64,000 nt of DNA from an uncultured Candidatus Saccharibacteria bacterium (GCA_964552475.1 CAZKFZ010000001.1:35347-99346), one strand, 5' to 3'; counted from the first letter of the stretch, positions 9,701 to 60,537 are shown. Translations and numbers: made by a program. The notes: generated from the sequence alone by a model not told the origin.

Positions 9701-10997
9701 AAAGTTGTTTACCCATACTCGCAAGCACTATAATAGTGATACAGAGTGTTTAAAGCATATATTAGAAAATCAAGTATACGGTTTGGCACCCACCAAGGTG
9801 CTATATGATATTACCCAGTCGTATATATTTGGTTTCGATCAAAATAACAAAGTTAGTAACCACAATTTTGTTGAGCACGACTTACTGCCCGAGGCAAAAG
9901 ACGATACTGCAGCAAAGAAACTCGCACAATTATTTGGAAATGGAGGAAGTATGATGAAATTTGATGCCGTAGTGGGGAATCCACCGTATCAGGAAAATAG
10001 CGGAACAAGTGCCCGAGATGATGCTATATACAATTATTTTTACGACACTGCTGTACAGATAGCTGATAAATACTGCCTGATTTCGCCTGCACGCTTCTTA
10101 TTCAATGCCGGTAGTACCCCAAGACAATGGAATAAAAAAATGCTTAATGACACTCACTTGAAAATTATATCTTATGCGCACGACTCGTCAGCTGTTTTTC
10201 CTAATGTAGGTATTGCGGGTGGTGTAGTGATTATCTTTAGAGATGCTACTCAAGAATATGGAGCAATCGGTACATTTACAAGCTTTGATGAGCTAAATAG
10301 TATTGCGAGTAAAGTGAACACAGCCAGACAAGAAGCACTGACTAATATAATTTCAGGACGGGGTATATATAGGCTAACCCCGCAGCTGCATGAAGAACAC
10401 CCTGAAGTCAAAAATATGCAATCTGCTGGCCACAAAGACGATGTCGGGACGGGTGCATTTGATAAGTTTATCGGAATTATATTTTTTAAATCAAAACCGA
10501 ATGACGGAAAACATTACACACGCGTATACGGTAGGCTGGCCAATGAAAGAACTGATATGTGGATCAGGTCTGACTATATCAATAAACCATATGCAAATGA
10601 TAAGTATAGGGTCATTATTCCTAAAGCTTATGGTACTGGCATAACCGGAGTGGGTGTAACTGCAAGTTTGATTGGAAAACCTTTTGTTATTAAGCCTAAT
10701 GAAGCCTTTACAGAGATGTACATATCCATAGGCGATTTTGAGAGCGAACAAAGTGCTTTAAATGCTTTAAAATACGTAAAATCTAAGTTTGCGCGAGTGA
10801 TGCTAGCTGTCCTTAAGGTTACACAAGACAACACTAAAGAGAAATGGTCAAAAGTTCCACTCCAAGACTTCACATCGAACTCTGATATCGACTGGTCGAA
10901 ATCCATTCCAGAAATCGATCAGCAACTATATGCAAAGTATAAGTTATCAAAAGATGAAATAGAATTTATAGAGTCTCATGTTAAGCCCATGGTGTAG
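6783..10997 (+). CDS. single-polypeptide SNF2/DEAH-box helicase fused to Eco57I-type N6-adenine DNA methyltransferase (Type ISP-like restriction-modification or anti-restriction enzyme)
   Basis: 1404 aa. Helicase motifs: Walker A AKPRFGKT (motif I), VIDEAHEG (motif II DEAH), LHLSGTPF (motif III, SNF2/ResIII-like). A ~250-aa E/K-rich coiled-coil linker follows. MTase motifs: NQIFTPRKVV (motif X, FxxP) and VVGNPPYQ (motif IV NPPY, gamma-class N6-adenine). A ~250-aa C-terminal region could act as a target-recognition domain. The ~150-aa N-terminal domain has a possible GIY-YIG-like stretch (QIYSYTL...KIGYTERKDVDARINEQTH), unconfirmed. Confidence 0.8.
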   Translation: MPDNLPKIKTTKVVYPQIYSYTLPEHKANEGSQKIGYTERKDVDARINEQTHTAAIKLKPQKLWSAPSFFADNKNDFNDKTFHKFLVKNGVENRLDLGKEWFYFDGTPEKSKELFDAFREQGFAALQNVDKKIPYSLRTEQQAAVTMAKNYFTKHSGGEVLWNAKPRFGKTLATYDLAKQMQARKVLIVTNRPAIANSWLDDFEQFVEGYMFISETSSLSNRTALTREQFVSTSVELPQITFLSLQDMKGSRYFGGDYEKLEWVADLEWDMLVIDEAHEGIDTERTDAAFDIVKRKYTLHLSGTPFKALANNKFPKEAIFNWTYLDEQKIKQAELEENDTGDHTELPNLKLYTYRISEMVADEVNEGIEIDNETRDFAFDLNEFFATKDQKFVHEEDVREFLKNLTSNTKYPFSTPDLREELRHTFWYVGNRVDSVKALEQLLKQDDILKDYKIVVAAGDGKSFEEEENDFYGNEKSFDKVKKAIAENPRTITLSCGQLTAGVTIKEWSAVLMLTDIKTPAQYMQAAFRAQNPHRFYEDGQLKAKESAYLFDFAPTRVLEIYDQFANGLNGKAANGEITESERKENIKELLNFFPVISEDIDGKMVELDAEKVLTFPNALAAAEIVKARFMTNLLFNDNVKGVFSFPKEVEDILDKMPIEKNKRAEVAKSVLDLDDARKFEQSREAKINENSGVILGEKIFRSNIERVVDNALNAETTEEIIETLPDKITELAEPLIAKYKEVYKATNAEVEEMKKETDEKVRLVVAEYESSEIKDTAKLKENLANVIENDLVIDRVEQKETEVVEKVQKTKEEEVRDRLRSFTRTIPMFIMANSTKETINIDNFDDHIDDNDFEDLTNITKDEFYKLRDGFDYDENGERKTFGGVFDRYKFNASIAEFVAEKQKRADYFNTHEDIFELIPNQKNNQIFTPRKVVQIMINSLEKESPELFERTDSTFIDLYMKSGMYITEIVKKLFTHTRKHYNSDTECLKHILENQVYGLAPTKVLYDITQSYIFGFDQNNKVSNHNFVEHDLLPEAKDDTAAKKLAQLFGNGGSMMKFDAVVGNPPYQENSGTSARDDAIYNYFYDTAVQIADKYCLISPARFLFNAGSTPRQWNKKMLNDTHLKIISYAHDSSAVFPNVGIAGGVVIIFRDATQEYGAIGTFTSFDELNSIASKVNTARQEALTNIISGRGIYRLTPQLHEEHPEVKNMQSAGHKDDVGTGAFDKFIGIIFFKSKPNDGKHYTRVYGRLANERTDMWIRSDYINKPYANDKYRVIIPKAYGTGITGVGVTASLIGKPFVIKPNEAFTEMYISIGDFESEQSALNALKYVKSKFARVMLAVLKVTQDNTKEKWSKVPLQDFTSNSDIDWSKSIPEIDQQLYAKYKLSKDEIEFIESHVKPMV

Positions 10998-11000
10998 TTA

Positions 11001-11969
11001 GTGGTAGCCAAGCCTAGCATTGATATTTTTGAGAATTCTCTCCGCTCAAGAGGTAATTTACTAGATATATTACTTCTTGATCGTACTACTAAGAAAAATA
11101 TAATTTGGGCTACAGACTCATATAACAAAGCTCAAAAGAATAATAGTTTTTCACCGCGTAGGCAAATAAAACCAGAGCTTGTTACGGGCAAAGTTTATGG
11201 CCAACTTATACAACCAAGAGCTGCAAAACCACTATACGAGCAGCGTAAGCGTACCAAAGACAAAGCGGAGGTTTTCACACCATTACGTGTAGTAGACCAA
11301 ATGAACAAGCATATAGACTGGTCTAGTAGTTATCCACCAAACAAAGATAACTGGCAGGACTATGTGAAACAGCTAAAACTAGAGATAACATGTGGCGAAG
11401 CACCTTTTATGGTAGGAAGGTACAACCCAGATGCTCACACAGGTAAACTGATACAACTATACACTAAGACTGGCAAGCCAAACCGAGTAGGGTTTTTAGA
11501 TCGCAAGCTATACATAGTTTCAAAATATTGCAACAAGCATAGTCAGTGGGTACATTGGGCAAAAGAAGCATTTAAGGCAAGTTATGGATATGAGTGGCAG
11601 GGTGACAATATACTTATAGCTCGTGAGAATTTACTATATACATTTATAGATTTCTATGTAGATAAATTCAAACGTCGCCCATCGTTAAAATTACAAGAAG
11701 AGATTGCAGAGATAATAAGCTGGAATATATTTCAAATGGATGGGCTAAAATATGTAGTACCTATGAGCTGTAAACACATCAATAGAGTAATCCCCGGCGA
11801 GCTTACACTTTTTGGTGAGACACCAGACAGAGTAGAGAAAGACGAATGCGATGGATGTAAGTTACAAAAACCATACAAGCATAACGGTAAGTATGTAAAA
11901 ATAATGGATTGGGAGAAAAATACCACCATAAAGTTCGTTGATCTAATAACACAAAACGACGGCTTGTAA
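11001..11969 (+). CDS. hypothetical Cys-cluster protein translationally coupled to the helicase-MTase gene
   Basis: 322 aa. GTG start 3 nt after the upstream stop. Contains an AEVFTPLRVVDQM motif reminiscent of MTase motif X but no NPPY. C-terminal CKH...C-x2-C cluster (MSCKHIN...DECDGCK). Confidence 0.55.
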   Translation: MVAKPSIDIFENSLRSRGNLLDILLLDRTTKKNIIWATDSYNKAQKNNSFSPRRQIKPELVTGKVYGQLIQPRAAKPLYEQRKRTKDKAEVFTPLRVVDQMNKHIDWSSSYPPNKDNWQDYVKQLKLEITCGEAPFMVGRYNPDAHTGKLIQLYTKTGKPNRVGFLDRKLYIVSKYCNKHSQWVHWAKEAFKASYGYEWQGDNILIARENLLYTFIDFYVDKFKRRPSLKLQEEIAEIISWNIFQMDGLKYVVPMSCKHINRVIPGELTLFGETPDRVEKDECDGCKLQKPYKHNGKYVKIMDWEKNTTIKFVDLITQNDGL

Positions 11970-15896: not shown

Positions 15897-16442
15897 TTAG
15901 TAAACTATTTTGAGCTGGCTGTTTGGCTCAATAACTGTAGTAAGGGCGTTGGGCGACTCTACACCATTAATATAAAAGCGCAATTGCTGTGCTGAGTTGG
16001 TACAAAAGGTTTGCTTGGTACCGGTAACTATACATTTGGTATCTACACTCATAGGTAGAGTAGTAAACAGATCACCCCAGGTAATGTTAGGTTTGGTAAC
16101 TACCACCTGTACCTGGCTAGAGCCTTCGGGCGGTATGTATACATCGGCCGATTTGTTGTGATAACGCGGGTCGGTAAATATGCGGGTTTCACCATTTATA
16201 ATAATTTGAAAAGTAGCTGTATATGGGGTAAATACCGGTACAGTCGTAGGTTGGCTATTGTTTTGGCTGGTGCTGGCTGGTGCAGTTGTTTTAGCTCTTG
16301 TGAGATACAAGTAGCCAGCAAGAACTATAATAATAGAAACAAAGATAGCAAAAGCTACTAAATACTTATTACTACGTCTTTTTTTTGCATTTTTCATACG
16401 GCTAGTATAGCAACAATTGGTAGTACATAAAACTATTGACAT
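15897..16442 (-). CDS. secreted/membrane-anchored hypothetical protein
   Basis: 181 aa. Basic N-terminus, one TM (LVAFAIFVSIIIVLAGYLYL), then a T/P/S-rich linker and a beta-rich C-terminal domain. Confidence 0.5.
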   Translation of the reverse strand: MSIVLCTTNCCYTSRMKNAKKRRSNKYLVAFAIFVSIIIVLAGYLYLTRAKTTAPASTSQNNSQPTTVPVFTPYTATFQIIINGETRIFTDPRYHNKSADVYIPPEGSSQVQVVVTKPNITWGDLFTTLPMSVDTKCIVTGTKQTFCTNSAQQLRFYINGVESPNALTTVIEPNSQLKIVY

Positions 16443-16464
16443 TTACGCTAGTTTGTGCTAGTAT
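16436..16464 (+). promoter_or_regulatory. sigma70-like promoter for the GC-rich gene at 16505
   Basis: TTGACA, 17 nt spacer, TAGTAT. A GAGAGA RBS sits 5 nt before the ATG at 16505. Confidence 0.5.
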
Positions 16465-16504
16465 AGTTAGGCTCAAGTAAATCTACTGAAAGAGAGATGA
16501 GCAC

Positions 16505-16921
16505 ATGAACATCGACATCAGTGATCTCGACCGTGCAGCCGTGTTGGCCGCGCTCTTCAATGGGGCACGGGCTCAGGGCCTCGGTTTCATCGCTCACCAG
16601 GACGGCGACATGACCGTCGAGCAGGCTCAGGCCATCCTCAACTCCGGTACGACCTACTTCGACTACCTGCAGGGTAGGGTGATGAAGGTCGACCTCTCCG
16701 GCGACTCGTTCGACCCCTGGGGCTACGACCGCGACAACGGCGAGGGCGCTGCCCACTCCGTCATCCGCTCGCTGCGGCAGACCGGCTCGGCCTCCAACGT
16801 GGAGACCAGGCATCTGCACCAGCACGGCATGGCCGCCGCAGCCGACGAGCTTCGGGAGCACTACGGCGACGATCTCGCCGACGAGCTGGTCGGCGCCCGC
16901 CGACCGGTCAGCGAAAGCTGA
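16505..16921 (+). CDS. hypothetical protein with high-GC (actinobacterial-like) codon usage
   Basis: 138-aa ORF with strong G/C third-position bias (atc gac ctc gcc ...), in sharp contrast to the ~40% GC neighbours. The translation is protein-like. The antisense ORF 16448-16960 is judged a high-GC artefact. Confidence 0.6.
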   Translation: MNIDISDLDRAAVLAALFNGARAQGLGFIAHQDGDMTVEQAQAILNSGTTYFDYLQGRVMKVDLSGDSFDPWGYDRDNGEGAAHSVIRSLRQTGSASNVETRHLHQHGMAAAADELREHYGDDLADELVGARRPVSES

Positions 16922-17095
16922 CAAAAAGGTTTGCCAGTTCCTTTCAAAAACTGGCTCCACCTAAGTGTTTAATGATATTAAATTGAAAATTTGGGTGGCA
17001 AAAGGTTCCTTGCTGAGTATTAATCTAATGCTAAGTAAGGAGCTTTTAGCAAATAAAAGCTTTGTACCTGTCCCCAAAAAAAAGGAAAATGCAAA

Positions 17096-17539
17096 ATGAG
17101 TCGACGCTCACTCATGCAGTTGTCGTTTGTGGTGTTTACTACCGCGCTCAGCGTGGCGTACTACCACATCTACATGTCGCTCGACACCTTGGCGCGTCAA
17201 GCGCTTATCGAGATGGGCGACACCACCTACTACCCGCCAGAGAATCAGCTCTGGGTAGCTACCAAGATCGTCGCAATCTCAGCTACCTTCGTGGGTGCTG
17301 GCATGGTGGCACTGATGTTTTTTGCCTACCTTCTCATTATGGCAATGTGCAACCAAGAGATCAACTCAGCCATTCGTGACTGCGAAGAACTTGGTGGCAC
17401 GCTCACCTCAGAACCCATTAAGGTGTGCCACTGGTACAGCTACGACTGGTCGCTAACCGGTGAGTTGCCCAGCGGCGAGGAGTACATTCGCTACAACGGC
17501 GACAACTTCTTCGAGGTTTTTCCGTTCGTACACCACTAG
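17096..17539 (+). CDS. hypothetical membrane protein (GC-rich)
   Basis: 147 aa. Three hydrophobic helices then a Cys-containing soluble tail. AGGAAA RBS. Elevated GC. Confidence 0.55.
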   Translation: MSRRSLMQLSFVVFTTALSVAYYHIYMSLDTLARQALIEMGDTTYYPPENQLWVATKIVAISATFVGAGMVALMFFAYLLIMAMCNQEINSAIRDCEELGGTLTSEPIKVCHWYSYDWSLTGELPSGEEYIRYNGDNFFEVFPFVHH

Positions 17540-17557
17540 GGCCAAGTAGGCCCGCAG

Positions 17558-17589
17558 GGCCCCAACAATTGTTGGGGCCCTTTACCTAT
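17558..17589. repeat. copy 1 of a 22-nt perfect palindrome plus conserved tail (terminator-like repeat element)
   Basis: GGCCCCAACAATTGTTGGGGCC followed by CTTTACCTAT. The same 32-nt element with one substitution recurs at 19803-19834. It can fold as a 9-bp stem, AATT loop and T-rich tail. Confidence 0.8.
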
Positions 17590-17597
17590 AAAACATC

Positions 17598-17626
17598 TTG
17601 CAAATTTATAAATTTACTAGTATAAT
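17598..17626 (+). promoter_or_regulatory. sigma70-like promoter for the flotillin-like gene
   Basis: TTGCAA, 17 nt spacer, TATAAT, about 45 nt upstream of the ATG at 17672. Confidence 0.55.
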
Positions 17627-17671
17627 ACTGCATCGGAATGTATTTCCTAAACGAAAGGTCCAACAAAGGAC

Positions 17672-19765
17672 ATGGTACCTTCCAATACATATGTACTAGG
17701 CGCATCTGAGGGACTCCCAATTGTGCCTATTGTGCTTGGAGTTGTTGCATTTATTGCGCTACTTATCGTGGCGCGATTTATCGTAAAGAGCTTCAATATG
17801 ATTGGCCCAGATGAGTTTGGGTTGGTAGAGAAGCGCCTGGGCAAGAAGTTGCCAGAGGGTCAGTTAATCGCTTTTAACGGCGAGGCCGGCTATCAGGCGG
17901 AGTTGCTTCAGCCAGGCTTACGCTTCAAGCTCTGGCCTCTGTATTGGGTCACTAAGTACCCTCTGGTGCAGGTTGCTGCCGGTGAGATTGGTCTTGTTGT
18001 GGCCCAGGCCGGTGGTGATTTACCCCCAGGCTTCAAGTCTGGTGTCTACAAAGACGAGTTTGGTCTTTTTGCCAACCTAGAAACGTTTATTCAGAACGGT
18101 GGACAGCGTGGCGTGCAGAGACAGGTTTTGCCTCCGGGTACAACCCAGCAGATGCACCCTATCGCATTCATTGTACGGACTCGGTCTGAGACTTTCGGCA
18201 CGGTTTTGTCGGAGTCGGCTGAGGAAGTGCTGAATAGAATTCCGCCCGAAAAATTGGTGCCGTTCACTATTGAACCCCAGGGTCATACCGACGTAGTGGG
18301 TGTGGTTACTACACTCGAAGGCGCTCCGGCCAAAGGCATCGCCAGTCGGCTTGGTAACTTCGACGATGTAGTAGAAGCTGAGGCAGCAGATACGGCGGCT
18401 AACACCATCATCACAACGGTGCTTGCGCCCAAAAACAACCTGCACAACAACTACCAGGATTTCCAGGCTTTTCTGGATGCTGGTGGGTGCATTGGCCTCC
18501 AGCACGATCCACTACTTTACGGGCAGTACATGCTAAACCCCTACCTGGTTTCAGTTGAGCTTCGCGAGATGCTCGTTGTGCGCCAGGGCGAGGTTGCTGT
18601 GGTTAAGGCCTACGTAGGCCTACCCACCGAAGATACGTCTGGCGAGGAGTTTAAGTTTGGCTCTATTGTAGAGCCAGGTCATCAGGGTATTTGGTCGGAG
18701 CCACTGCGCACCGGCAAGTACACCCTTAACCCACGCATTTACGAGGCCGAGATTGTACCGACCTCTATCCTTACACTCAACTGGGCCAATGCAACCAGCG
18801 AGGCTCACAACCTCGATGGTTCGTTGTCGTCGATTCACGCCAAGAGCAAGGAAGCGTTCGATTTTAGCATTGATCTGCAGGTGCAGATTCACGTGCCCGA
18901 CACTCGAGCACCCAAGGTTATTAGCATGGTTGGTACCATGCAGAACCTGGTTAATGAGGTTCTGCAGTCGGCGGTAGGCAACTACTTCCGTAATACACTG
19001 CAGTCTCTAGGCGCCGCTGAGTTCATTCAGAAGCGTGACGAAGTCCAGGCCCAGGCCGAGAACTACGTCATGGGTTACCTCTCGCGTTATGAGGTAGAGG
19101 TGCGCGGTGTTTACATCCAGGATGTGGTCTTCCCACCAGAGTTGGTAGAGGTGCTTACAACGCGAGAAATCGCAGCACAGCAGACTCAAACCTACCAGAG
19201 CCAGATGGTAGCCGAGCAGGCTCGAATTGACCTGGAGAACCAAAAGGGCGTGGCCGATGCCCAGGCCGATTTGGCAAGGGCTCGGGTTTCGGTGGATGTT
19301 AACGATGCCGAGGCTCAGGCTGCGGTTAAGCGTGCTGAAGGTGAGGCTGCGGTCGTGCGTCAACGCGGTCAGGCTGCTGCCGATGTTACAAAGCTGACAG
19401 GTGAGGCTGAGGCTGCTGCCACACAAGCTACTGGTTTGGCCGAGGCCAAGGCCACCGAGGCCAAGGGTCTCGCGGTCGCCAAGGGCTTCGATGCTCAGCA
19501 GCGGGCTATTGGCCGTCAGCAGACTGGTTTGGTTGCTGCACTCGAGCAGATTGGCAAGGGTGGAGTGGTACTCACTCCGCAGATTCAGGTTGGTGGTGAC
19601 TCAGTAGGCTCTGGTCTACTAAACACCCTAATGACCTTAGGTGTCGATAAGATGGTGAACGACAACGGCGAGGGTTCGCCCGAGCTGGAGGCCGTTGATG
19701 CGTCGTCCGATGCTGAAGCCTCGGCTGAGCCGAGCGATGAAGCACCGTCAACCAACGAAGACTAA
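17672..19765 (+). CDS. SPFH/band-7 flotillin-family protein
   Basis: 697 aa. N-terminal TM, SPFH core (KSFNMIGPDEFGLVEKRLGK...), long C-terminal A/E/Q-rich repeats (AEAQAAVKRAEGEAAVVRQRGQAAAD...) typical of flotillin. Acidic tail. Elevated GC. Confidence 0.75.
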   Translation: MVPSNTYVLGASEGLPIVPIVLGVVAFIALLIVARFIVKSFNMIGPDEFGLVEKRLGKKLPEGQLIAFNGEAGYQAELLQPGLRFKLWPLYWVTKYPLVQVAAGEIGLVVAQAGGDLPPGFKSGVYKDEFGLFANLETFIQNGGQRGVQRQVLPPGTTQQMHPIAFIVRTRSETFGTVLSESAEEVLNRIPPEKLVPFTIEPQGHTDVVGVVTTLEGAPAKGIASRLGNFDDVVEAEAADTAANTIITTVLAPKNNLHNNYQDFQAFLDAGGCIGLQHDPLLYGQYMLNPYLVSVELREMLVVRQGEVAVVKAYVGLPTEDTSGEEFKFGSIVEPGHQGIWSEPLRTGKYTLNPRIYEAEIVPTSILTLNWANATSEAHNLDGSLSSIHAKSKEAFDFSIDLQVQIHVPDTRAPKVISMVGTMQNLVNEVLQSAVGNYFRNTLQSLGAAEFIQKRDEVQAQAENYVMGYLSRYEVEVRGVYIQDVVFPPELVEVLTTREIAAQQTQTYQSQMVAEQARIDLENQKGVADAQADLARARVSVDVNDAEAQAAVKRAEGEAAVVRQRGQAAADVTKLTGEAEAAATQATGLAEAKATEAKGLAVAKGFDAQQRAIGRQQTGLVAALEQIGKGGVVLTPQIQVGGDSVGSGLLNTLMTLGVDKMVNDNGEGSPELEAVDASSDAEASAEPSDEAPSTNED

Positions 19766-19802
19766 TTCGTACCTAGTACATGTAGAATAAATTGTACCCA
19801 AA

Positions 19803-19834
19803 GGCCCCAACAATTGTTGGGGCCTTTTACCTAT
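19803..19834. repeat. copy 2 of the 22-nt perfect palindrome plus tail; also the likely terminator of the flotillin gene
   Basis: GGCCCCAACAATTGTTGGGGCC followed by TTTTACCTAT, 38 nt after the stop at 19765. Confidence 0.8.
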
Positions 19835-19972
19835 TTAAAATCCCAAAACACAAATATAACTATAATCTACTAGGTATAATGTAAGTTTTATAAAATCAAG
19901 ACTAAACTACCCTGGTCTATTTATAAGTAGTATAATATACATCAATACTAAAACAGTTAAGCTTTGTAAAAA

Positions 19973-20641
19973 ATGTATAATCTAATACCTAAAGAATTTC
20001 TAAGAATAATTTACTCGCAACACAGTAAAGAGTTGGGTAAAAATCTTGCTGGTATAGTGTTGTGCGGTAGTGCAGCCAACCATAGCCTAGATCGTGACTC
20101 CGATATAGACTATGTTGTGATAGTTAAAAATTTAGATAAAAATAGCTACAAAGTCTTGGCTGATTTACGGCTTGCACTAGAAAAGCAACTTGGTTTGCAG
20201 TGCAGTAATACTGTTGTTGAGTATCACTCTATTAGAGATTTAAAAAACAACTATATGTACTTAGACGGTAAAGCAGTACAAGCCTGTATTGACTCAAACG
20301 CACAAAATACTTTACTAAATAAGAGTTATGCCATACCTAAGCTAGATTCTAGTACGGTCCGAAAGTTTTCGGCTCTAGATTTTCATAAGCTAAAAGCTCT
20401 TACTATTAAACAACTAGTAAGAATGTCTAATCCAGCTAGCTACAGCGAGAGACGTAAAGTAATAAAATTAGCTTATATTTTATGTAAAGTTTATGCACAG
20501 GCTAGTACAACTACTCAAGAAAAAGAGTATATGGATAGCATTAGAGACTCACTAATGTCAATAAAAAACAATATTCGCAAATATAATGATAGTCAGCTTT
20601 TTGAGGTTATTGCTAGAATAATTTCTCTAAATCTTCACTAG
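19973..20641 (+). CDS. minimal nucleotidyltransferase (Pol-beta superfamily; KNTase/Lnu-like)
   Basis: 222 aa. LCGSAANHSLDRDSDIDYVVIV is the G[GS]-x(9-13)-D-x-[DE] nucleotidyltransferase signature. Helical C-terminal domain. Confidence 0.6.
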   Translation: MYNLIPKEFLRIIYSQHSKELGKNLAGIVLCGSAANHSLDRDSDIDYVVIVKNLDKNSYKVLADLRLALEKQLGLQCSNTVVEYHSIRDLKNNYMYLDGKAVQACIDSNAQNTLLNKSYAIPKLDSSTVRKFSALDFHKLKALTIKQLVRMSNPASYSERRKVIKLAYILCKVYAQASTTTQEKEYMDSIRDSLMSIKNNIRKYNDSQLFEVIARIISLNLH

Positions 20642-55690: not shown

Positions 55691-56020
55691 GTGGCTACTA
55701 TTAGAGATAGTTGCCAAGCCTGTGGCGAAGTCGAATTTACATCTGATGATATTCAGGTAAAAATTGAAAATCAGGATGGTTCAGGCAGTTACATATTTGT
55801 TTGTCCTAGGTGCCAAGAGTTAGTTATTAAGTCGGCCAATTCTAAGACCATCGACCTGCTTATGGCGAGTGGAGTAGAGGAAGTAGATATTCCACTAGAG
55901 TTTTTAGAACCAAAAGACGGTTTGCCAGTCTGCCATGACGATCTCATTGATTTTCATGATCATTTAGACCATCTGCCCACTAATTGGATCGATGAGCTTG
56001 TACCACATCATACCGAATAA
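55691..56020 (+). CDS. zinc-ribbon hypothetical protein
   Basis: 109 aa. CQACGE...CPRCQE Cys pairs. Acidic, His-rich C-terminus. Confidence 0.45.
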   Translation: MATIRDSCQACGEVEFTSDDIQVKIENQDGSGSYIFVCPRCQELVIKSANSKTIDLLMASGVEEVDIPLEFLEPKDGLPVCHDDLIDFHDHLDHLPTNWIDELVPHHTE

Positions 56021-56063
56021 ATATCCCGAGCAAATAATGCTCGGGATTTTAATATTGAACCAA

Positions 56064-56762
56064 TTAAATTCTCACCTGTGCATTGTGGGCAATTTGCACA
56101 ACAGTCTCAATATCGTCGGTGATTGTATACAGACTAGTATCTTCGGGGTCTATAGCCATAAGGTCTGGCGAGAGCATTTGGGTTTGGTGCAAGCCAATAT
56201 CGATTGGCTCCCAAAACTTAGCGCCCACACAAACGATAGGTACGGTATGAATCTTGTGGTTTTGTACTAGAGACAAGATCTCATAAAATTCATTGAGCGT
56301 GCCATATCCACCGGGAAAAAATATATACAAACGAGCTGCAAAAGCCATAACTACCTTACGAGTGAAAAAGTAATGAAAAGGTAGCGCTACGGTTTGGTAA
56401 GGGTTCGACTTTTGTTCTTTGGGCAATTCAATGTTTAGTCCTATAGAATGTCCGCCCGCCTCTTTTGCGCCGCGATTAGCGGCTTCCATTATGCCGGGGC
56501 CACCACCAGTGAGAACAGTATAATCTAACTCTTTTACTAGTCTATAAGCAATCTTTCGCGCCTTAATGTATTCTGGGTGATTCTCCTTTACTCGAGCTGA
56601 GCCAAATATTGTAACTTTTTTTGGATAGCGCTGAACAATATTTAGGCCCTGGCTAATTTCTTCATTAATAAGACAGACTTTTTCACTAGTTTCGTCGTTG
56701 GTTTTGCTATCGCAACTAGTCATTATTTCTTCGAGGGTATGGGGTTTGAAGGCATTGTCCAT
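56064..56762 (-). CDS. LOG-family (TIGR00730) Rossmann-fold nucleotide-binding protein
   Basis: 232 aa. VTIFGSARV, TGGGPGIMEAANRGA, PGGYGTLNEF (PGGxGTxxE). Confidence 0.8.
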   Translation of the reverse strand: MDNAFKPHTLEEIMTSCDSKTNDETSEKVCLINEEISQGLNIVQRYPKKVTIFGSARVKENHPEYIKARKIAYRLVKELDYTVLTGGGPGIMEAANRGAKEAGGHSIGLNIELPKEQKSNPYQTVALPFHYFFTRKVVMAFAARLYIFFPGGYGTLNEFYEILSLVQNHKIHTVPIVCVGAKFWEPIDIGLHQTQMLSPDLMAIDPEDTSLYTITDDIETVVQIAHNAQVRI

Positions 56763-56898
56763 GTTTAAATATTATATTGCTTACGGTATAAAAAATCTAG
56801 TCAAACCTCTCAATGTCTAGACACTTTTACCTTGACTATAGCACTAAATTGTAGTAATATTACGTCAGTTCGCCCAATCAGGCGATAGAGATAGTACT

Positions 56899-57711
56899 TT
56901 GAAAAAACCGAAAGGCGAAAAAGTGCCTACCAACAAATTAATTCGCGGTGAGGTTTTTAGAGGATCTACAGACGAGTGCTTTAAGGCATTTGTGAATAGA
57001 TTTGATAAGCCTCGCGAACAAAAGCTGTTTGCTCAGCTAATTAATGTTAGCTACCACTCTACATTAAGAGTATGGATTCGTAATGGTTTCAACACTCAGG
57101 GTGAGATTCTGTTGCGTGTTCGCGTAGTGCTAGAGCTATTTGGCTACAATTGTACGGAATGGGAAGATCTTGCCGACGAAGACAGAATAATTGCCTATGC
57201 AGTTGGTCTTGGTGTGTGTAGTGCTGCAGATGCTAGTGAGGCTCTAGCCTATGCTAGAACTAAGCAGTATCTAAGGTACATCCTACAAAGAACTGGACGC
57301 ACCAAAGACAAGGACGAGTTGGCTAAAGTATATGCTGAGATTGTCTTTTCAACAACTCAGCTACACATCGCCGAGTTTTGGGATAATGATGTAAAACAAA
57401 GCCCGGTGCTCTATAGAGCTAAGCCAGTTGCAACTAATGACGAATCAACTCTTATCGTATCTGCCCCAGACGAGACAACTCTATCTGTAGCAGAAGTTGA
57501 GAATGTCTTTGTTGCTTCGGTACAGGCTCTTTTACCTCTGGCTCGCTACTTCAATAGCGACGCGGTGAGCGAAGAGCAGCGTCGAGGCTTAAGAAAACGC
57601 GTAGGTTACGACGGTATTAGCGAGCTTAGTAGCTTGTTTGATTCACTCAGTAACGAACAAAGTCGTCGCAAGATTCGTGCCAACAGGAGCGAAGAGAGGA
57701 TTGTACGCTGA
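56899..57711 (+). CDS. HTH (XRE-like) domain protein, translationally coupled to a GHKL ATPase
   Basis: 270 aa. QKLFAQLINVSYHSTLRVWIRNG looks like a helix-turn-helix. TTGACT, 17 nt spacer, TAATAT promoter-like element at 56832-56860. Stop overlaps the next start (TGATG). Confidence 0.5.
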   Translation: MKKPKGEKVPTNKLIRGEVFRGSTDECFKAFVNRFDKPREQKLFAQLINVSYHSTLRVWIRNGFNTQGEILLRVRVVLELFGYNCTEWEDLADEDRIIAYAVGLGVCSAADASEALAYARTKQYLRYILQRTGRTKDKDELAKVYAEIVFSTTQLHIAEFWDNDVKQSPVLYRAKPVATNDESTLIVSAPDETTLSVAEVENVFVASVQALLPLARYFNSDAVSEEQRRGLRKRVGYDGISELSSLFDSLSNEQSRRKIRANRSEERIVR

Positions 57712-59378
57712 TGGCTAAACTCAAACCTCACGTAGGAGCGGCCATTATGGCCGCGGCCGAAACTTACCCATACGTATTTGCGGTTATCCTAGAGGCTATC
57801 CAGAACGCCATGGATGCCGATGCTCAGAACGTTTGGGTAGATATCAATCGTAAGAAGCGTGAAGTTCGCGTTTACGACGATGGCGTAGGTGTTACCAAAG
57901 AGAAGTTCGATATTGCTTTGCAAACCGTTGGACGAAGCATTAAGGGTGAGCAAGTAGATGCCTATGGTCAATTTGGCCGCGGCTTGGTGGCTCCTTTGGG
58001 CAAGTGTGATTACTTCACATTTACTTCTAATGGTCTGGAGTGGACCTTTGTTACCGAAGACATCGAAAACTCGGCTGACGAAGTGGATGTTCCCGAAAAA
58101 GAAGTAGAGATTGTTTTTTCTAAGAGTCAACAAAAACGTCAAAAACACCCAGTAAACCCCAATTGGCGTACCCGCATGGTGATGTATGGTGTCACCAAAG
58201 ACCGCAAGACGTCGGAGTTTGATGTGAACAAGTTGGCTGCTACCGCGGTTACCAACTTCCGCACCAAGATGCTTCGAAACGAAACAGTCTTGCGCTTTAC
58301 CGTACAACCCCTGAAGGGCCCAGAATACACCTTTACAACGGTGGCTGAGCCTTATAGTGGCACTAAGCTTGATCCGTTCGTTTTCGAGCCGAGGCGAGAC
58401 AAATTGGTAGAGATCAAGCTGTTCTTGGCACTTCATATTGAAGGTAAGTATAGCGGTAGTGTTTCTACTGGTACCCTGGCTACACCTTACCGCGTACCAT
58501 TTGAGACTCTCTTAAAAAACCAAAGAAGCCTTACAGATCTACTAGACGACGAGATCGTTCAGGCGCTTTGTTCGGGAATTTTTGAAGGAGAGTTGCTTAG
58601 CAACACTCTTACTTTGAGCCCCGAGCGAGTAAGCTATGAAGACAACGATGGTTTTGTAGAGTTCTGTATGGCACTAGAGAACTGGTATGAGCATACTGGT
58701 AGGGAATACTACCAAGAGGCTCTTAGCCGAGAAGACTCTGAAAGATTTGAAAAAAATGCCGAAAAAGCTTTAGATGCTCTCAACAAGCTTTTTGAAGACC
58801 CATCTATGAGAATGTATGCTGATCTCGTTGGTCGGTTTCCTGCCGATCTCCCTGGTACAGGGGCGCAAGGCCCCGACCCAACCGGTGACGACGAAGAAAC
58901 TGATGTGCCTGCCAGCAAAACACCTAGCCCAAAGAAGACCGGTGAGGGTGGTAGCCCTGGTGGCGGAAACGGTACTGGAGGCGACAACCCAACACCTGGC
59001 GGTGGGGGTGGTGGTAAAAATGGAGGAAATGGTCGAACCACCGATGGTGGCGAAACAAAGGTTCCGGATCCATCTGGTAAGGAGCGTAAAACCGTCAAGG
59101 CGAAGTCGTTTGGCTTGCGCCTAGGTGAAACTCAACACCTAAGTGGACCTTGGCAACTAGATTTACGAGTTGGTGTTTTGTGGATTAACACCAAGCACCC
59201 CTTGTACTTACAGTGCGCCGACTACAGTCGAAACCCCGACCTTTGTATTCGTCGCTATCAACAGCACGTGGCCATTCAGGCTCTTAGCCTGCATTGTTCA
59301 CCTGAAGAATCACAAAAGCACGCAGCCGAGGTGCTCGACACCGAGCTTGCTGCCTTTGTTATCTTGCTAACTCAGTAG
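57711..59378 (+). CDS. MORC/MutL-like GHKL (Bergerat-fold) ATPase, HATPase_c_3-type
   Basis: 555 aa. N-box ILEAIQNAMDA, G1 VYDDGVGVT, G2 YGQFGRGLVAPLGKCDYFTFTS. C-terminal Gly-rich low-complexity segment (GEGGSPGGGNGTGGDNPTPGGGGGGKNGGNG). No MutL endonuclease motif. Confidence 0.7.
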   Translation: MAKLKPHVGAAIMAAAETYPYVFAVILEAIQNAMDADAQNVWVDINRKKREVRVYDDGVGVTKEKFDIALQTVGRSIKGEQVDAYGQFGRGLVAPLGKCDYFTFTSNGLEWTFVTEDIENSADEVDVPEKEVEIVFSKSQQKRQKHPVNPNWRTRMVMYGVTKDRKTSEFDVNKLAATAVTNFRTKMLRNETVLRFTVQPLKGPEYTFTTVAEPYSGTKLDPFVFEPRRDKLVEIKLFLALHIEGKYSGSVSTGTLATPYRVPFETLLKNQRSLTDLLDDEIVQALCSGIFEGELLSNTLTLSPERVSYEDNDGFVEFCMALENWYEHTGREYYQEALSREDSERFEKNAEKALDALNKLFEDPSMRMYADLVGRFPADLPGTGAQGPDPTGDDEETDVPASKTPSPKKTGEGGSPGGGNGTGGDNPTPGGGGGGKNGGNGRTTDGGETKVPDPSGKERKTVKAKSFGLRLGETQHLSGPWQLDLRVGVLWINTKHPLYLQCADYSRNPDLCIRRYQQHVAIQALSLHCSPEESQKHAAEVLDTELAAFVILLTQ

Positions 59379-59388
59379 TTAATACACA

Positions 59389-59418
59389 AGCCCCTAGGAC
59401 ATTATTCTAGGGGCTTTT
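59389..59418 (+). terminator. rho-independent terminator
   Basis: AGCCCCTAG-gacattatt-CTAGGGGCT followed by TTTT, 11 nt after the stop. Confidence 0.7.
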
Positions 59419-59430
59419 ACTTATGTGGCA

Positions 59431-59459
59431 TTGACATACACCAATTTTGTTGCTACAAT
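59431..59459 (+). promoter_or_regulatory. consensus sigma70 promoter
   Basis: TTGACA, 17 nt spacer, TACAAT, 43 nt upstream of the 59502 start. Confidence 0.6.
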
Positions 59460-59501
59460 CTCAAAGACCATTTTGTCGGGTGAATTGCCCGCAGAACAAA
59501 G

Positions 59502-60167
59502 GTGGATCTTTTGACAGATAAGAAGAAAACTAGACTTCACAACGAAGATGAGTGGATTAAGATACTTAACAAGGTCTTAAGGGCCCTACAAGCCATGCCG
59601 GGCGATGAGTCTGGTAACCGAGTATTTACCCTCAGAGAACTCCTAGAGCCACTTGATCTATATGGCCACAGAGCTACTATTTCGCGCCATCTTAGCTATA
59701 TGCGAGTGATGGTAAAGGGCGATAAGCAGCCTACTGGCAGATATTTATGGCACGTAGACATGACCAAGAAGCGCATTACCGCTAACGATCTTCGAAATGC
59801 ACGCGAGCGTCACACCAAGAGAATCTATGCAACTCAAAACATCAAGCCAAAAACTAGAGCGCCTAAGAAGCCGGTAAAGACACAGTCGAGTCCGGGAGTG
59901 GTTGATGCAACTGCAAAGTCAGAAGGTGTTGAACCAGCAGAAGACGCAAATGATGGTTTTCCAAACCTTGTGGCTTTGGCATCTGAGCTTCAGGCTAAGG
60001 TAGACGAAATCGTAAGCAGGCTCCGCGCTTTGAATGCTGAGATTGTAGCAGAAGAGAGGTCCCTTGCTGCCAAGCGTACGCTTTACGCAGAGCTGGAGTC
60101 GGAATATATTCCGCTCAGCGAAGCTGTTCGGAATGCTACAGCTAGCTTAATGAAAGCTAGCTCGTAA
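59502..60167 (+). CDS. hypothetical protein (basic N-terminal region, coiled-coil C-terminus)
   Basis: 221 aa. GTG start at 59502, or TTG at 59511. Own promoter and terminator. Confidence 0.5.
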   Translation: MDLLTDKKKTRLHNEDEWIKILNKVLRALQAMPGDESGNRVFTLRELLEPLDLYGHRATISRHLSYMRVMVKGDKQPTGRYLWHVDMTKKRITANDLRNARERHTKRIYATQNIKPKTRAPKKPVKTQSSPGVVDATAKSEGVEPAEDANDGFPNLVALASELQAKVDEIVSRLRALNAEIVAEERSLAAKRTLYAELESEYIPLSEAVRNATASLMKASS

Positions 60168-60174
60168 ACCCCGC

Positions 60175-60201
60175 AAAACCCCTACTACCGTAGGGGTTTT
60201 T
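60175..60201 (+). terminator. rho-independent terminator
   Basis: AACCCCTAC-tacc-GTAGGGGTT followed by TTT. Confidence 0.7.
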
Positions 60202-60250: not shown

Positions 60251-60280
60251 TTTACAAGCTTATTTGCAAAGGCGTATAAT
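60251..60280 (+). promoter_or_regulatory. sigma70-like promoter for the small ORF
   Basis: TTTACA, 18 nt spacer, TATAAT. Confidence 0.5.
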
Positions 60281-60344
60281 CATAAGCACGAACATGTTTA
60301 GTAAGTAGCTAAACATTAAATAAAACAAAAGGAGGGTTATTTAA

Positions 60345-60443
60345 GTGCCAGAAACGAACAAGATCAACGATGAAGAGTGGGATAAACCCATGGTTTGCCC
60401 GATAAACCCAGAAGAATTGGCCGAATGTGAGGTTTGCCAGTAG
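60345..60443 (+). CDS. 32-aa Cys-containing small protein (not in the ORF track)
   Basis: GGAGG RBS 9 nt before the GTG. Translation VPETNKINDEEWDKPMVCPINPEELAECEVCQ (C-x9-C-x2-C). Own promoter upstream and a terminator 55 nt downstream. Confidence 0.45.
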   Translation: MPETNKINDEEWDKPMVCPINPEELAECEVCQ

Positions 60444-60497
60444 CTTCTAAAGTTAAGAAAAGCGCATTACATTGAATTTATACTAAAAAGAGATAGT

Positions 60498-60525
60498 AAA
60501 AAAGACCAGTTATCTGGTCTTTTTT
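60498..60525. terminator. bidirectional rho-independent terminator
   Basis: AAAAAGACCAG-ttat-CTGGTCTTTTTT. Confidence 0.7.
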
Positions 60526-60537
60526 AGTAGATAAAAT

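What the first reader, a model, noticed from the sequence alone, without database searches (positions are those of the whole stretch)
56899..60167. HTH protein coupled to a MORC/MutL-like GHKL ATPase, plus a third independently promoted gene
The 555-aa protein has textbook Bergerat-fold motifs (ExxxNAxDA, DxGxG, GxFGxG-LxxxL...S) of the HATPase_c_3/MORC type, but no MutL endonuclease or dimerisation motifs. It ends in a Gly-rich low-complexity region. Its start overlaps the stop of a 270-aa protein with an XRE-like HTH (TGATG coupling). Prokaryotic MORC-like GHKL ATPases have been described next to restriction-modification and other conflict systems. A two-gene HTH plus GHKL unit followed by a gene with a consensus TTGACA-17-TACAAT promoter could be a compact defence or DNA-surveillance module.
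Basis: partly seen in the sequence, partly recalled or inferred. Interest (0 to 1): 0.65.

Follow-up and report, generated by a model that had tools for sequence, protein, structure and literature searches.

The report
Dispensable HTH–GHKL ATPase cassette in Patescibacteria
A tiny-genome Saccharibacteria bacterium carries a self-contained three-gene cassette (a DNA-binding helix-turn-helix protein, a MutL/MORC-like ATPase of a previously undescribed family, and a coiled-coil protein) that close relatives have cleanly lost; its core gene pair recurs across this bacterial radiation, and its role (foreign-DNA control or gene regulation) is still unproven.

Summary
The three ORFs, the Bergerat motifs, the TGATG coupling and the TTGACA-17-TACAAT promoter are all real. 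One detail is wrong: the Gly-rich stretch is an internal linker, followed by a conserved 105-aa C-terminal domain.

A (XRE-type HTH) and B (GHKL ATPase) form a tightly coupled pair in 34 of 34 loci that retain upstream DNA. B's family has at least 381 clusters at 50% identity, apparently all Patescibacteria. Only its first ~110 residues match any Pfam model. B is not MORC (signature motif absent), MutL, HtpG, GyrB or Shedu/paraMORC3.

C occurs only in one Saccharibacteria subclade. An unannotated 32-aa gene after C gave an empty-site test. Contigs with the identical peptide and synteny either carry A-B-C (8) or lack exactly that 3.3–3.5 kb block (9). Flanking-gene and B divergence agree (r = 0.88), and empty sites nest inside occupied clades, so the cassette is inherited vertically and repeatedly lost. 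dN/dS is 0.07–0.15, against 0.016 for the neighbour.

Flanking genes are housekeeping, with no recurrent defence partner and no nuclease. My best reading is an HTH-guided, ATP-driven DNA clamp with an accessory role. A defence function is possible but not shown.

The parts
56832..56860 (+). Promoter-like site for the A-B operon (TTGACT-17-TAATAT)
   Evidence: The -35 and -10 positions are conserved in L010 and L002. By analogy with L134 and L136, it lies inside the block that is missing at empty sites.
56899..57711 (+). Gene A: XRE/Cro-C1-type HTH protein with a conserved C-terminal Arg-containing module (R228, R232 and R256 invariant). The likely true start is GTG at 56923 (262 aa).
   Evidence: It lies directly upstream of B in 34 of 34 informative loci. 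dN/dS is 0.14.
57711..58115 (+). Gene B, residues 1-135: GHKL (Bergerat) ATP-binding domain with all catalytic motifs intact
   Evidence: Pfam HATPase_c_3 at 46.6 bits, hit by 46 of 46 members. E28, N32, G58, G60 and G91 are 100% conserved and D56 is 99%. pLDDT is 84-95.
58158..58832 (+). Gene B, residues ~150-374: second (transducer-like) domain plus a long helix. W152/R153, SGxFEGE (288-294) and R/K306 (100%) are conserved.
58851..59057 (+). Gene B, residues ~381-449: disordered Gly/Pro-rich linker.
   Evidence: pLDDT is 26-33. A linker of 33-72 residues is present in all 148 members, but only 10 of 148 have more than 25% Gly.
59058..59378 (+). Gene B, residues ~450-555: conserved C-terminal domain (5 strands plus 3 helices) of unknown fold family. 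N493 and H496 are near-invariant.
59388..59416 (+). Intrinsic-terminator-like hairpin ending the A-B transcript
   Evidence: It is conserved with compensatory changes in L010. L002 has a different hairpin plus T-run at the same place.
59431..59459 (+). Promoter of gene C (TTGACA-17-TACAAT, TG-extended)
   Evidence: Matches 11 of 12 consensus positions. Conserved in L010 and L002 (TTGACA-17-TATATT).
59502..60167 (+). Gene C: conserved ~100-aa N-terminal domain of unknown family, a basic Lys/Pro-rich linker and a C-terminal coiled coil. The likely start is TTG at 59511. It is specific to one subclade.
   Evidence: only coiled-coil Pfam hits, ZapB in 5 of 9 members; N-domain has no homolog. Found in 8 of 37 loci. 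Co-deleted with A-B. dN/dS is 0.09-0.14.
60176..60201 (+). Terminator hairpin of gene C, the right end of the cassette
   Evidence: AAACCCCTAC..GTAGGGGTTTTT is conserved in the window, L010 and L002. In L134 and L136 homology to empty sites resumes 55-60 nt after C's stop codon. The boundary in the window itself is inferred by analogy.

Best explanation
The locus is a self-contained accessory cassette. Its conserved core is a translationally coupled two-gene operon.

Shown: B is a catalytically intact GHKL ATPase. It has a second, transducer-like domain, a long helix, a flexible 33-72-residue linker and a small conserved C-terminal domain. This tripartite layout resembles MutL (ATPase module, disordered linker, C-terminal domain). 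A is an XRE-type helix-turn-helix protein with its own conserved C-terminal module.

Inferred mechanism: B dimerises and uses ATP binding and hydrolysis to close and open as a clamp, as MutL, MORC, SMCHD1 and type II topoisomerase ATPase modules do. A binds B and supplies DNA sequence specificity, either as a loader or adaptor or as a repressor whose action B modulates. In one Saccharibacteria subclade a separately transcribed coiled-coil protein, C, was added to the cassette.

Because no nuclease or other effector domain is present, the output is most likely ATP-dependent trapping, compaction or silencing of DNA, not cleavage. The cassette is dispensable, evolves faster than its neighbours and is repeatedly lost. 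That fits an accessory, conflict-type or niche-specific role, such as control of foreign DNA or conditional gene silencing. It does not fit a core housekeeping function.
For: - ATPase competence: Bergerat motifs are 97-100% conserved in 148 members, and HATPase_c_3 is hit by 46 of 46 members.
- MutL-like layout: a disordered linker (pLDDT below 35) followed by a folded C-terminal domain.
- Obligate pairing with the HTH protein: 34 of 34 informative loci across Patescibacteria, with stop/start overlaps of 1-4 nt or gaps of 53 nt or less. A and B distances co-vary, r = 0.77.
- The HTH in A.
- Cassette behaviour: 8 occupied sites against 9 empty sites with the identical sORF peptide and the same synteny. 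The indels of 3.47 and 3.26 kb span A's promoter to C's terminator.
- Vertical inheritance with at least 2 independent clean losses: LOG and B distances correlate at r = 0.88, and empty L140 and L141 nest within occupied clades.
- Functional but fast-evolving: dN/dS is 0.07-0.15 against 0.016 for the flanking LOG gene.
- One decayed copy: L039 keeps only B profile positions 208-556 and has no A.
Against: - Nothing here shows DNA binding by B, an A-B physical interaction, or dimerisation. These are inferred from family-level analogy and gene coupling.
- The second domain has no Pfam S5/DNA_mis_repair hit.
- The C-terminal domain has no recognisable relative, so its role in dimerisation is a guess.
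- There is no defence-gene enrichment in the flanks and no match to full-length PADLOC models.
- An HTH upstream gene could be no more than an autoregulator of the operon.
Confidence: 0.45

Rival explanations
1. Anti-phage or anti-plasmid defence system. A senses or targets invader DNA, or de-represses the operon on infection. B is the ATP-driven effector or regulator that blocks invader replication. This overlaps with the best explanation on biochemistry but commits to immunity as the biological role.
For: - Accessory presence/absence polymorphism with repeated loss, and non-synonymous evolution faster than in a housekeeping neighbour.
- GHKL-domain similarity to defence-associated HATPase_c_3 proteins: Tiamat TmtA E = 1e-8, BbrUII/HgiDII restriction enzyme 1.6e-8, MzaB 2e-3.
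- A validated precedent in which a GHKL domain plus clamp-like middle domain controls a defence effector: VcSduA/paraMORC3 (PMC12137116).
- Sporadic distribution across several Patescibacteria lineages.
Against: - No nuclease, TIR, HEPN, DUF4263 or other effector domain.
- PADLOC hits cover only ~80-130 N-terminal residues of models that are 600-1650 positions long.
- The 124 flanking genes are housekeeping, with no recurrent restriction-modification, helicase or nuclease partner.
- Inheritance is vertical, not by frequent lateral transfer (r = 0.88).
- No plasmid or phage-record homologs.
Confidence: 0.25
2. Lineage-specific transcriptional or nucleoid regulator of the bacterium's own genes, for example host-interaction or stress genes. 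A is a repressor or activator, and B is an ATP-dependent co-regulator or remodeller that sets A's activity. C is an extra nucleoid-associated factor.
For: - The HTH partner is obligatory.
- The chromosomal position is stable and vertically inherited among housekeeping genes.
- The genes are under purifying selection.
- C has a basic linker and coiled coil, like small nucleoid or division-associated proteins, though only generic coiled-coil hits such as ZapB and YabA were found.
Against: - The cassette is dispensable in close relatives (LOG 91-97% identical) that keep all neighbouring genes.
- No target genes are known.
- No conserved operator was identified beyond the promoter.
Confidence: 0.2
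3. Remnant or domesticated module of a mobile element, or an addiction-type selfish cassette. It persists by its own means, and its precise presence/absence reflects excision or insertion and not simple deletion.
For: - The boundaries are clean and similar in two independent pairs, running from A's promoter to C's terminator.
- A 7-nt GCAAATT flanks the cassette in L134, with a single GCGAATT at the empty site in L141.
- One A-B pair lies on a 354-kb contig filed as viral in IMG/VR (L042).
Against: - There is no recombinase, transposase or integrase in or next to the cassette, and no tRNA.
- No flanking repeat in the L136/L140 pair or in the window.
- B's phylogeny is congruent with that of the flanking LOG gene.
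- L042 shows no phage structural hallmark genes within 20 kb.
Confidence: 0.07
4. Non-DNA function: an Hsp90-like chaperone or a GHKL protein kinase or anti-sigma-type switch, with A as its client or substrate.
Against: - NCBIfam HtpG models score 13-23 bits against cutoffs of 371-455.
- No HSP90 middle or C-terminal domains were found in Pfam.
- The best sequence and structure matches are MutL and PMS.
- The obligatory HTH partner points to DNA.
Confidence: 0.03

Closest known systems
MutL / MLH-PMS N-terminal ATPase with flexible linker and C-terminal domain
   Different: The sequence match covers only ATP motifs I-II. TIGR00585 scores 31 bits against a cutoff of 180. There is no MutL_C or DNA_mis_repair Pfam domain, no endonuclease motif (0 of 154), and the C-terminal domain is unrelated in fold. 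B is paired with an HTH gene and is not in a mismatch-repair context.
Prokaryotic MORC and paraMORC1-5 ATPases (Iyer, Abhiman & Aravind 2008, PMC2292703)
   Same: HATPase_c_3-type GHKL domain with intact motifs, followed by a second domain and family-specific C-terminal extensions. Distribution is sporadic and accessory.
   Different: The MORC signature GhXhhpXXRhl is absent. There are no SF-II helicase, methylase or endonuclease neighbours. The C-terminal domain is not a RE-fold, TIR or HxH domain. B is restricted to Patescibacteria and has an obligatory XRE-HTH partner.
VcSduA / type I-D Shedu (paraMORC3), a validated anti-phage GHKL-nuclease (PMC12137116)
   Same: Similar size. An N-terminal GHKL ATPase and a clamp-like middle domain are proposed to control a C-terminal module.
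   Different: VcSduA's effector is a DUF4263 PD-(D/E)xK nuclease. B has no DUF4263 or Shedu hit in Pfam or PADLOC. VcSduA is a single-gene system without an HTH partner.
Eukaryotic MORC2 / SMCHD1 DNA-compacting GHKL silencers
   Different: There is no sequence-level family membership, no CW, hinge or UBL domains, and the partner is a bacterial XRE-type HTH. The analogy is an inference and was not tested.
XRE/Cro-C1 repressors (P22 C2, lambda cI-like)
   Same: A's residues ~40-85 match the HTH of P22 C2 (E = 0.0011) and the XRE protein 3op9 (E = 0.005). Members hit HTH_3, HTH_31, HTH_26 and Phage_CI_repr.
   Different: A is about 260 aa. It has an N-terminal GxTxEC motif, a second helical region and a conserved C-terminal module (PLA..SD.F..E.R..LR..G.D..F.LSN.L..LCSE.AR) that has no known homolog.

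Membership tests
GHKL (Bergerat-fold) ATPase superfamily | Motifs I-IV (ExxxNxxD, DxGxG, GxxGxG, and so on) and the Bergerat fold | tested here: met
MORC family (Iyer et al. 2008) | MORC-specific GhXhhpXXRhl motif in the S5-fold domain | tested here: not met
   A regular-expression search over 154 family members found 1 match, at residue 63 inside the GHKL domain, which is a chance hit. The motif definition comes from PMC2292703.
MORC family (Iyer et al. 2008) | S5-fold second domain supplying a conserved basic residue | tested here: inconclusive
paraMORC1-5 / restriction-modification-associated GHKL | Conserved operon with SF-II helicase, endonuclease and/or DNA methylase | tested here: not met
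   The Pfam and PADLOC census of 124 flanking genes in 37 loci found no recurrent helicase, nuclease or methylase. The only constant neighbour is the HTH gene A.
paraMORC3 / type I-D Shedu (VcSduA) | C-terminal DUF4263 PD-(D/E)xK nuclease domain | tested here: not met
MutL | Score above the curated family cutoff, a MutL_C dimerisation domain and the endonuclease motif DQHA(X)2E(X)4E | tested here: not met
   TIGR00585 scores 31.3 bits against a cutoff of 180, and the other MutL models score 14-30 bits against 391-937. No MutL_C in Pfam. D[QM]HA is present in 0 of 154 members. The C-terminal domain's fold is unrelated.
HtpG/Hsp90 | Score above the curated cutoff, and Hsp90 middle and C-terminal domains | tested here: not met
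   NF003555 scores 13.2 bits against 371, and NF010683 scores 22.8 against 455. No HSP90 Pfam hit.
GyrB/ParE/Topo VI-B | TOPRIM or transducer domains, and sequence-level membership | tested here: not met
XRE/Cro-C1 HTH (protein A) | Helix-turn-helix of the lambda-repressor-like type | tested here: met
   The family profile hits P22 C2 at E = 0.0011 and 3op9 at E = 0.005. Members hit HTH_3 (7e-6), HTH_17, HTH_23, HTH_31, HTH_26 and Phage_CI_repr. The window protein on its own scores below Pfam thresholds.
Known anti-phage defence systems (PADLOC-DB v2) | Full-length match to a system protein, with the system's other genes adjacent | tested here: not met
   The only hits are partial: TmtA (E = 1e-8, 78 of 1486 positions), type II restriction enzyme, and, in NCBIfam, MzaB. 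A and C have no hits.
Defence-island / accessory variable-region behaviour | Presence/absence polymorphism among close relatives | tested here: met
   8 occupied, 9 empty and 3 other sites with the identical flanking sORF peptide. Junctions were mapped.
Defence-island / accessory variable-region behaviour | Co-localisation with other defence genes or mobile-element genes | tested here: not met
   There are no integrase or tRNA genes. The alternative content in L126, L127 and L129 is unresolved.

The most novel reading that the evidence does not exclude
The A-B pair is a new, nuclease-free type of prokaryotic genome-surveillance system confined to the Patescibacteria. A sequence-specific XRE adaptor loads a MutL/MORC-like GHKL clamp onto target DNA (invading DNA, or specific chromosomal regions), and the clamp silences or immobilises it by ATP-dependent entrapment or compaction. 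This would be a bacterial functional counterpart of MORC/SMCHD1 silencing, with a novel C-terminal domain and, in one clade, a coiled-coil accessory subunit.
Probability: 0.25. Interest if true: 0.7.

Novelty: new variant of a known kind. Interest (0 to 1): 0.52.

Why it matters
Patescibacteria (CPR) make up a large share of bacterial diversity and have tiny genomes. They rarely carry CRISPR, and their defence and gene-regulation repertoires are poorly known. This finding adds a protein family with at least 381 clusters at 50% identity. About 80% of its length matches no Pfam model. It is always paired with a dedicated HTH protein and forms a clean, naturally occurring presence/absence polymorphism.

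If it proves to be an HTH-guided DNA clamp used for silencing or immunity, it would add a nuclease-free mechanism to the prokaryotic repertoire. It would also offer a minimal bacterial model for MORC/SMCHD1-type GHKL silencers. If it is only a niche regulator, it is still a useful marker of accessory-genome dynamics in Saccharibacteria. The natural occupied and empty strains provide a ready-made comparison for experiments.

Tried and rejected
1. **Word-indexed homolog searches** for B, with a single sequence and with a profile, returned only 7 clusters, and for A only 4. This badly understates the family. I suspect the Gly-rich linker swamped the candidate list for B. The exhaustive HMMER search found 381 clusters at E <= 1e-30.
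3. **An empty-site test through the flanking PRTase gene** in metagenome contigs failed. All hits were 37% identical or less, and none carried LOG, A, B or C.
4. **Target-site duplication.** GCAAATT flanks the cassette in L134, but nothing comparable is seen in the L136/L140 pair or in the window, so I make no claim.
5. **The ORF-poor stretches in L126** looked like possible rRNA genes, but Rfam found nothing.
6. **A hidden C homolog downstream of B in other lineages** was not found, even at E <= 10.
7. **A winged-helix assignment for C's N-domain** has no support from PDB or Pfam and remains a guess from the sequence pattern.
8. **Lateral transfer inferred from mixed taxon labels in the B tree** was set aside. 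Labels on the automated MAGs look unreliable: 'Gammaproteobacteria' MAGs share synteny with Parcubacteria MAGs.
9. **Compositional signature of foreign origin.** GC is 0.46-0.55 in the cassette and 0.44-0.49 in the adjacent pyrE/pyrF genes, so this is not diagnostic.
10. **Other searches that led nowhere.** The viral fold library gave only generic GHKL hits with TM-scores of 0.36 or less. Phage DNA and plasmid protein searches were empty. Literature searches found no description of this family.


Full report
**1. The observation**

- A is 56899-57711 (270 aa from a TTG start).
- B is 57711-59378 (555 aa).
- C is 59502-60167 (221 aa from a GTG start).

A's TGA stop and B's ATG share one base, giving TGATG at 57709-57713. 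B carries ExxxNAxDA (E28..N32..D35A36), DxGxG (D56, G58, G60) and GxFGxG (G86, G89, G91). It passes Pfam HATPase_c_3 at 46.6 bits against a cutoff of 25.

After B there is a 12-bp-stem hairpin with a T-run at 59388-59416. It is followed by TTGACA-17-TACAAT with a TG extension at 59431-59459, the best promoter-like site in the 5-kb scan.

Three corrections are needed.
- The Gly-rich segment is not the end of B. It is an internal disordered linker (residues ~381-449, pLDDT 26-33). A conserved, confidently folded domain follows at residues ~450-555.
- The NCBI protein for A is 262 aa (P0154), which implies a GTG start at 56923.
- An in-frame TTG at 59511 lies 5 nt after AGGTGG and matches the N-termini of homologs better than the GTG at 59502.

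**2. What the proteins are**

*Protein A.* The window protein scores nothing in Pfam on its own. A 33-member family profile hits the HTH of the P22 C2 repressor (E = 0.0011) and the XRE-family structure 3op9 (E = 0.005). Individual members hit HTH_3, HTH_17, HTH_23, HTH_31, HTH_26 and Phage_CI_repr. Beyond the HTH, A has a near-invariant N-terminal GxTxEC motif. It also has a conserved C-terminal module with three invariant arginines, R228, R232 and R256. That module has no detectable homolog.

*Protein B.* Only residues ~24-109 match any Pfam model. All 46 diverse members hit HATPase_c_3 and nothing else that is meaningful.
- An AlphaFold2 model (mean pLDDT 72.8, folded parts 75-95) shows a GHKL domain, a beta-rich second domain, a 47-residue helix, the linker and the C-terminal domain.
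- By sequence, MutL is closest (E = 2.7e-7), but only over ATP motifs I-II.
- Curated family models fail by wide margins. MutL scores 31 bits against 180, HtpG 13-23 against 371-455, and the BbrUII restriction enzyme 34 against 550.
- The MORC signature GhXhhpXXRhl, as defined in PMC2292703, is absent. So are the MutL endonuclease motif and any HExxH in the C-terminal domain.
- Across 148 members the catalytic residues are 97-100% conserved. So are positions outside the GHKL domain: W152 (96%), G293 (100%), R/K306 (100%), W325 (99%), N493 (100%) and H496 (93%). A linker of 33-72 residues is universal, but only 10 of 148 are Gly-rich.

*Protein C.* It has a conserved ~100-residue N-terminal domain with no PDB or Pfam homolog. 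A basic Lys/Pro-rich linker and a coiled-coil tail follow, and the tail gives only generic coiled-coil hits.

**3. Family size and distribution**

The word-indexed search found only 7 clusters. The exhaustive HMMER search with the family profile found 2069 proteins at E <= 1e-3 and 381 representatives of 50%-identity clusters at E <= 1e-30. The top 150 are all about 540-600 aa and match over their full length.

A scan of one genome per species, using a single strict peptide pattern, returned 32 loci. All are MAGs. They are labelled Saccharibacteria, Parcubacteria/Paceibacterota, Taylor-, Magasanikii-, Sungii- and Kaiserbacteria, or simply 'Patescibacteria'. Five are labelled Gammaproteobacteria or Bdellovibrionales. 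Three of those five share flanking synteny with Parcubacteria MAGs, so their labels are probably wrong.

L010, a Saccharibacteria MAG, is 94% identical to the window's B. I found no description of the family in the literature.

**4. What travels with B**

HMM searches of all ORFs in 37 loci found an A homolog directly upstream of B on the same strand in 34 of them. The stop-to-start distance is either a 1-4 nt overlap or a gap of 53 nt or less. Of the three exceptions, two are cut by contig ends. The third, L039, is a decayed B fragment covering profile positions 208-556 with no A. A and B distances co-vary at r = 0.77.

C occurs in only 8 of the 37 loci, all in the subclade that includes the window. 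No hidden C homolog exists elsewhere, even at E <= 10. The terminator after B and the separate C promoter are conserved in L010 and L002.

**5. Context**

A Pfam census of 124 genes flanking the module (two on each side) gave housekeeping functions:
- arginyl-tRNA synthetase
- P-type cation ATPase
- LOG
- OMP decarboxylase
- SMC
- GyrA
- MreB
- RNase R
- MraW
- Lon
- YmdB

No helicase, nuclease or methylase recurs. The same set scanned against PADLOC gave only sporadic hits, at most 3 of 124 per model. Many of these models are of generic ATPase, SMC, Lon or radical-SAM types, which can plausibly cross-match housekeeping genes. I did not trace these hits to individual loci.

The window has no tRNA, integrase or flanking direct repeat near the module. 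No phage or plasmid record carries a homolog. One full A-B pair sits on a 354-kb contig that IMG/VR files as viral (L042). Its 20-kb neighbourhood shows radical-SAM enzymes, ThyX, dUTPase, a sulfatase and glycosyl- and methyltransferases, but no phage structural hallmarks. Its nature is therefore undecided.

**6. The empty-site test**

The 415-bp 'gap' after C contains an unannotated, strongly conserved small gene. It runs in this order:
- C's terminator
- a TTTACA-18-TATAAT promoter (60251-60280)
- an AAAGGAGGG Shine-Dalgarno
- a GTG start
- a 32-aa ORF (60345-60443, MPETNKINDEEWDKPMVCPINPEELAECEVCQ)
- its own terminator

The same peptide follows C in every locus of the subclade that has enough DNA. 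Exact-sequence look-ups of two variants of the peptide returned 20 loci.
- Eight loci read LOG - A - B - C - sORF.
- Nine have LOG followed directly by the sORF, with no A, B or C. The HMMs confirm this.
- Three have unrelated, ORF-poor DNA with a DinG-like helicase upstream of the sORF. This state is unresolved, and Rfam finds nothing there.

In the closest empty/occupied pairs, homology breaks 20-29 nt beyond the LOG start codon. It resumes 55-60 nt after C's stop codon. So a block of 3.47 kb (L134 against L141) or 3.26 kb (L136 against L140) is present or absent as one piece. The block comprises A's promoter, A, B, C and C's terminator.

LOG and B distance matrices are congruent at r = 0.88. 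Empty sites nest within occupied clades: L140's LOG is 97% identical to that of occupied L136/L139/L143, and L141's is 91% identical to that of L134/L135/L138. The simplest history is presence in the ancestor of this Saccharibacteria clade, vertical descent, and at least two independent, recent, clean losses.

All three genes are under purifying selection. dN/dS is 0.14 for A, 0.07-0.11 for B and 0.09-0.14 for C. That is 4-9 times more relaxed than the flanking LOG gene at 0.016. B is 37-58% identical where LOG is 61-71%.

**7. Interpretation**

Shown:
- B is a catalytically competent GHKL ATPase of a new family, with a MutL-like tripartite layout.
- It is always coupled to an XRE-type HTH protein.
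- In one clade it is joined by a coiled-coil protein.
- The unit is dispensable and repeatedly lost.
- It does not sit in defence islands and carries no recognisable nuclease or other effector.

Inferred, from what is established for MutL, MORC, SMCHD1 and the type II topoisomerase ATPase modules: B works as an ATP-operated dimeric clamp, and A supplies DNA targeting. The accessory, faster-evolving and loss-prone behaviour suits a conflict-type or niche-specific role.

I give about 0.45 to the clamp-plus-adaptor mechanism with an accessory DNA-directed role. The remaining confidence is split over more specific or different readings:

| Reading | Confidence |
|---|---|
| Dedicated anti-phage or anti-plasmid defence | 0.25 |
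| Regulation of the bacterium's own genes or nucleoid | 0.20 |
| Selfish or mobile-element remnant | 0.07 |
| Chaperone or kinase-type function | 0.03 |

**8. Comparison with known systems, and novelty**

B works most like MutL/MORC-class GHKL ATPases, but it fails every membership test I could run for MORC, paraMORC, MutL, HtpG, GyrB and Shedu type I-D. The closest validated defence comparator is VcSduA (paraMORC3). It shares the GHKL-plus-clamp front end but ends in a DUF4263 nuclease, which B lacks.

I classify the finding as a new variant of a known kind: a new GHKL family with a new partner and new domains. Interest is moderate at 0.52. The family is large, unannotated and specific to an under-studied radiation, and the natural presence/absence polymorphism makes its function testable. 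Against that, there is no evidence yet of an unusual mechanism.

Noticed in passing
window 60251-60529 (+); sORF 60345-60443: An unannotated, strongly conserved small gene with its own promoter (TTTACA-18-TATAAT), a strong Shine-Dalgarno (AAAGGAGGG), a GTG start and a terminator. It encodes a 32-aa acidic peptide, MPETNKINDEEWDKPMVCPINPEELAECEVCQ, with a near-invariant C-terminal CP(I/L)(D/N)PxxLxEC(E/Q)xCQ motif containing three Cys. It is found on dozens of Saccharibacteria contigs, with or without the A-B-C cassette. Its function is unknown; it might be a metal-binding mini-protein or a peptide precursor.
   Followed up: partly
L126, L127, L129 (about 8 kb upstream of the sORF): A third state of the site. 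Instead of LOG, with or without A-B-C, the sORF is preceded by unrelated DNA of higher GC (0.48 against 0.42). It holds a 625-aa DEAD_2/Helicase_C_2 (DinG/XPD-like) helicase and two ORF-poor stretches of about 2.9 and 1.8 kb with no Rfam match. It could be a rearrangement, foreign DNA or a decayed region.
   Followed up: partly
L013:6809-7174, L022:5449-5736, L024:6882-7238, L026:1633-1908 (+); L031:6487-6759 (-): A family of small (90-121 aa) proteins sharing the motif KGQVVxLxxLQxFxKGWRA. It lies immediately upstream of gene A in five non-Saccharibacteria-subclade loci. It may be an additional lineage-specific component of the A-B operon. It was not annotated.
   Followed up: no
L042 (IMGVR_UViG_3300013121_000020, 354 kb); A 9271-9984, B 9986-11635: A complete A-B pair on a contig that IMG/VR classifies as viral. 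The neighbours are radical-SAM enzymes, ThyX, dUTPase, a sulfatase, glycosyl- and methyltransferases and a 1004-aa beta-helix protein. No phage structural genes lie within 20 kb. It is either a huge phage or a misfiled CPR genome fragment.
   Followed up: partly
L039:8019-9155: A truncated B homolog covering only profile positions 208-556, with no GHKL domain and no A gene upstream, in a 353-kb Saccharibacteria contig. It is an example of decay of the module.
   Followed up: partly
window 56405-56430 and 59481-59506: A 26-nt inverted match, 85% complementary, between the coding region of the LOG gene (minus strand) and the 5' UTR and Shine-Dalgarno region of gene C. The two mRNAs would therefore share a similar sense sequence, TGAATTGCCC..AGAACAAA.GT.GA. 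It is probably chance. It was not tested for significance or conservation.
   Followed up: no
L017, L023, L032, L033, L022: MAGs labelled 'uncultured Gammaproteobacteria' or 'Bdellovibrionales' carry the module. Three of them share flanking synteny (ArgRS, P-type ATPase) with Parcubacteria MAGs L029 and L040 and have low GC (0.36-0.40). This suggests mislabelled taxonomy or co-binned epibiont contigs.
   Followed up: partly
window 16000-20000: A segment with GC of 0.50-0.52 in a window that averages about 0.40. It is not rRNA: Rfam found no family and ARAGORN found no tRNA anywhere in the 64 kb. It includes a 697-aa ORF at 17672-19765. It was not examined.
   Followed up: no
window 55691-56020 (+) and 56023-56047: A 109-aa Cys-rich protein (CxxC...CxxC, with weak DUF6510 and phrog_2834 hits) just upstream of LOG, followed by a perfect bidirectional terminator hairpin that it shares with the convergent LOG gene.
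   Followed up: no
L141:1665-1850, L134:7640-7830: In the P0158-type clade, the region between LOG (or C) and the sORF holds a conserved TTGACA-17-TACACT promoter followed about 130 nt later by a GC-rich hairpin terminator (GGTGGGCC..GGCCCAC). This is a possible small RNA or micro-ORF unit, and it is absent from the window's clade.
   Followed up: no
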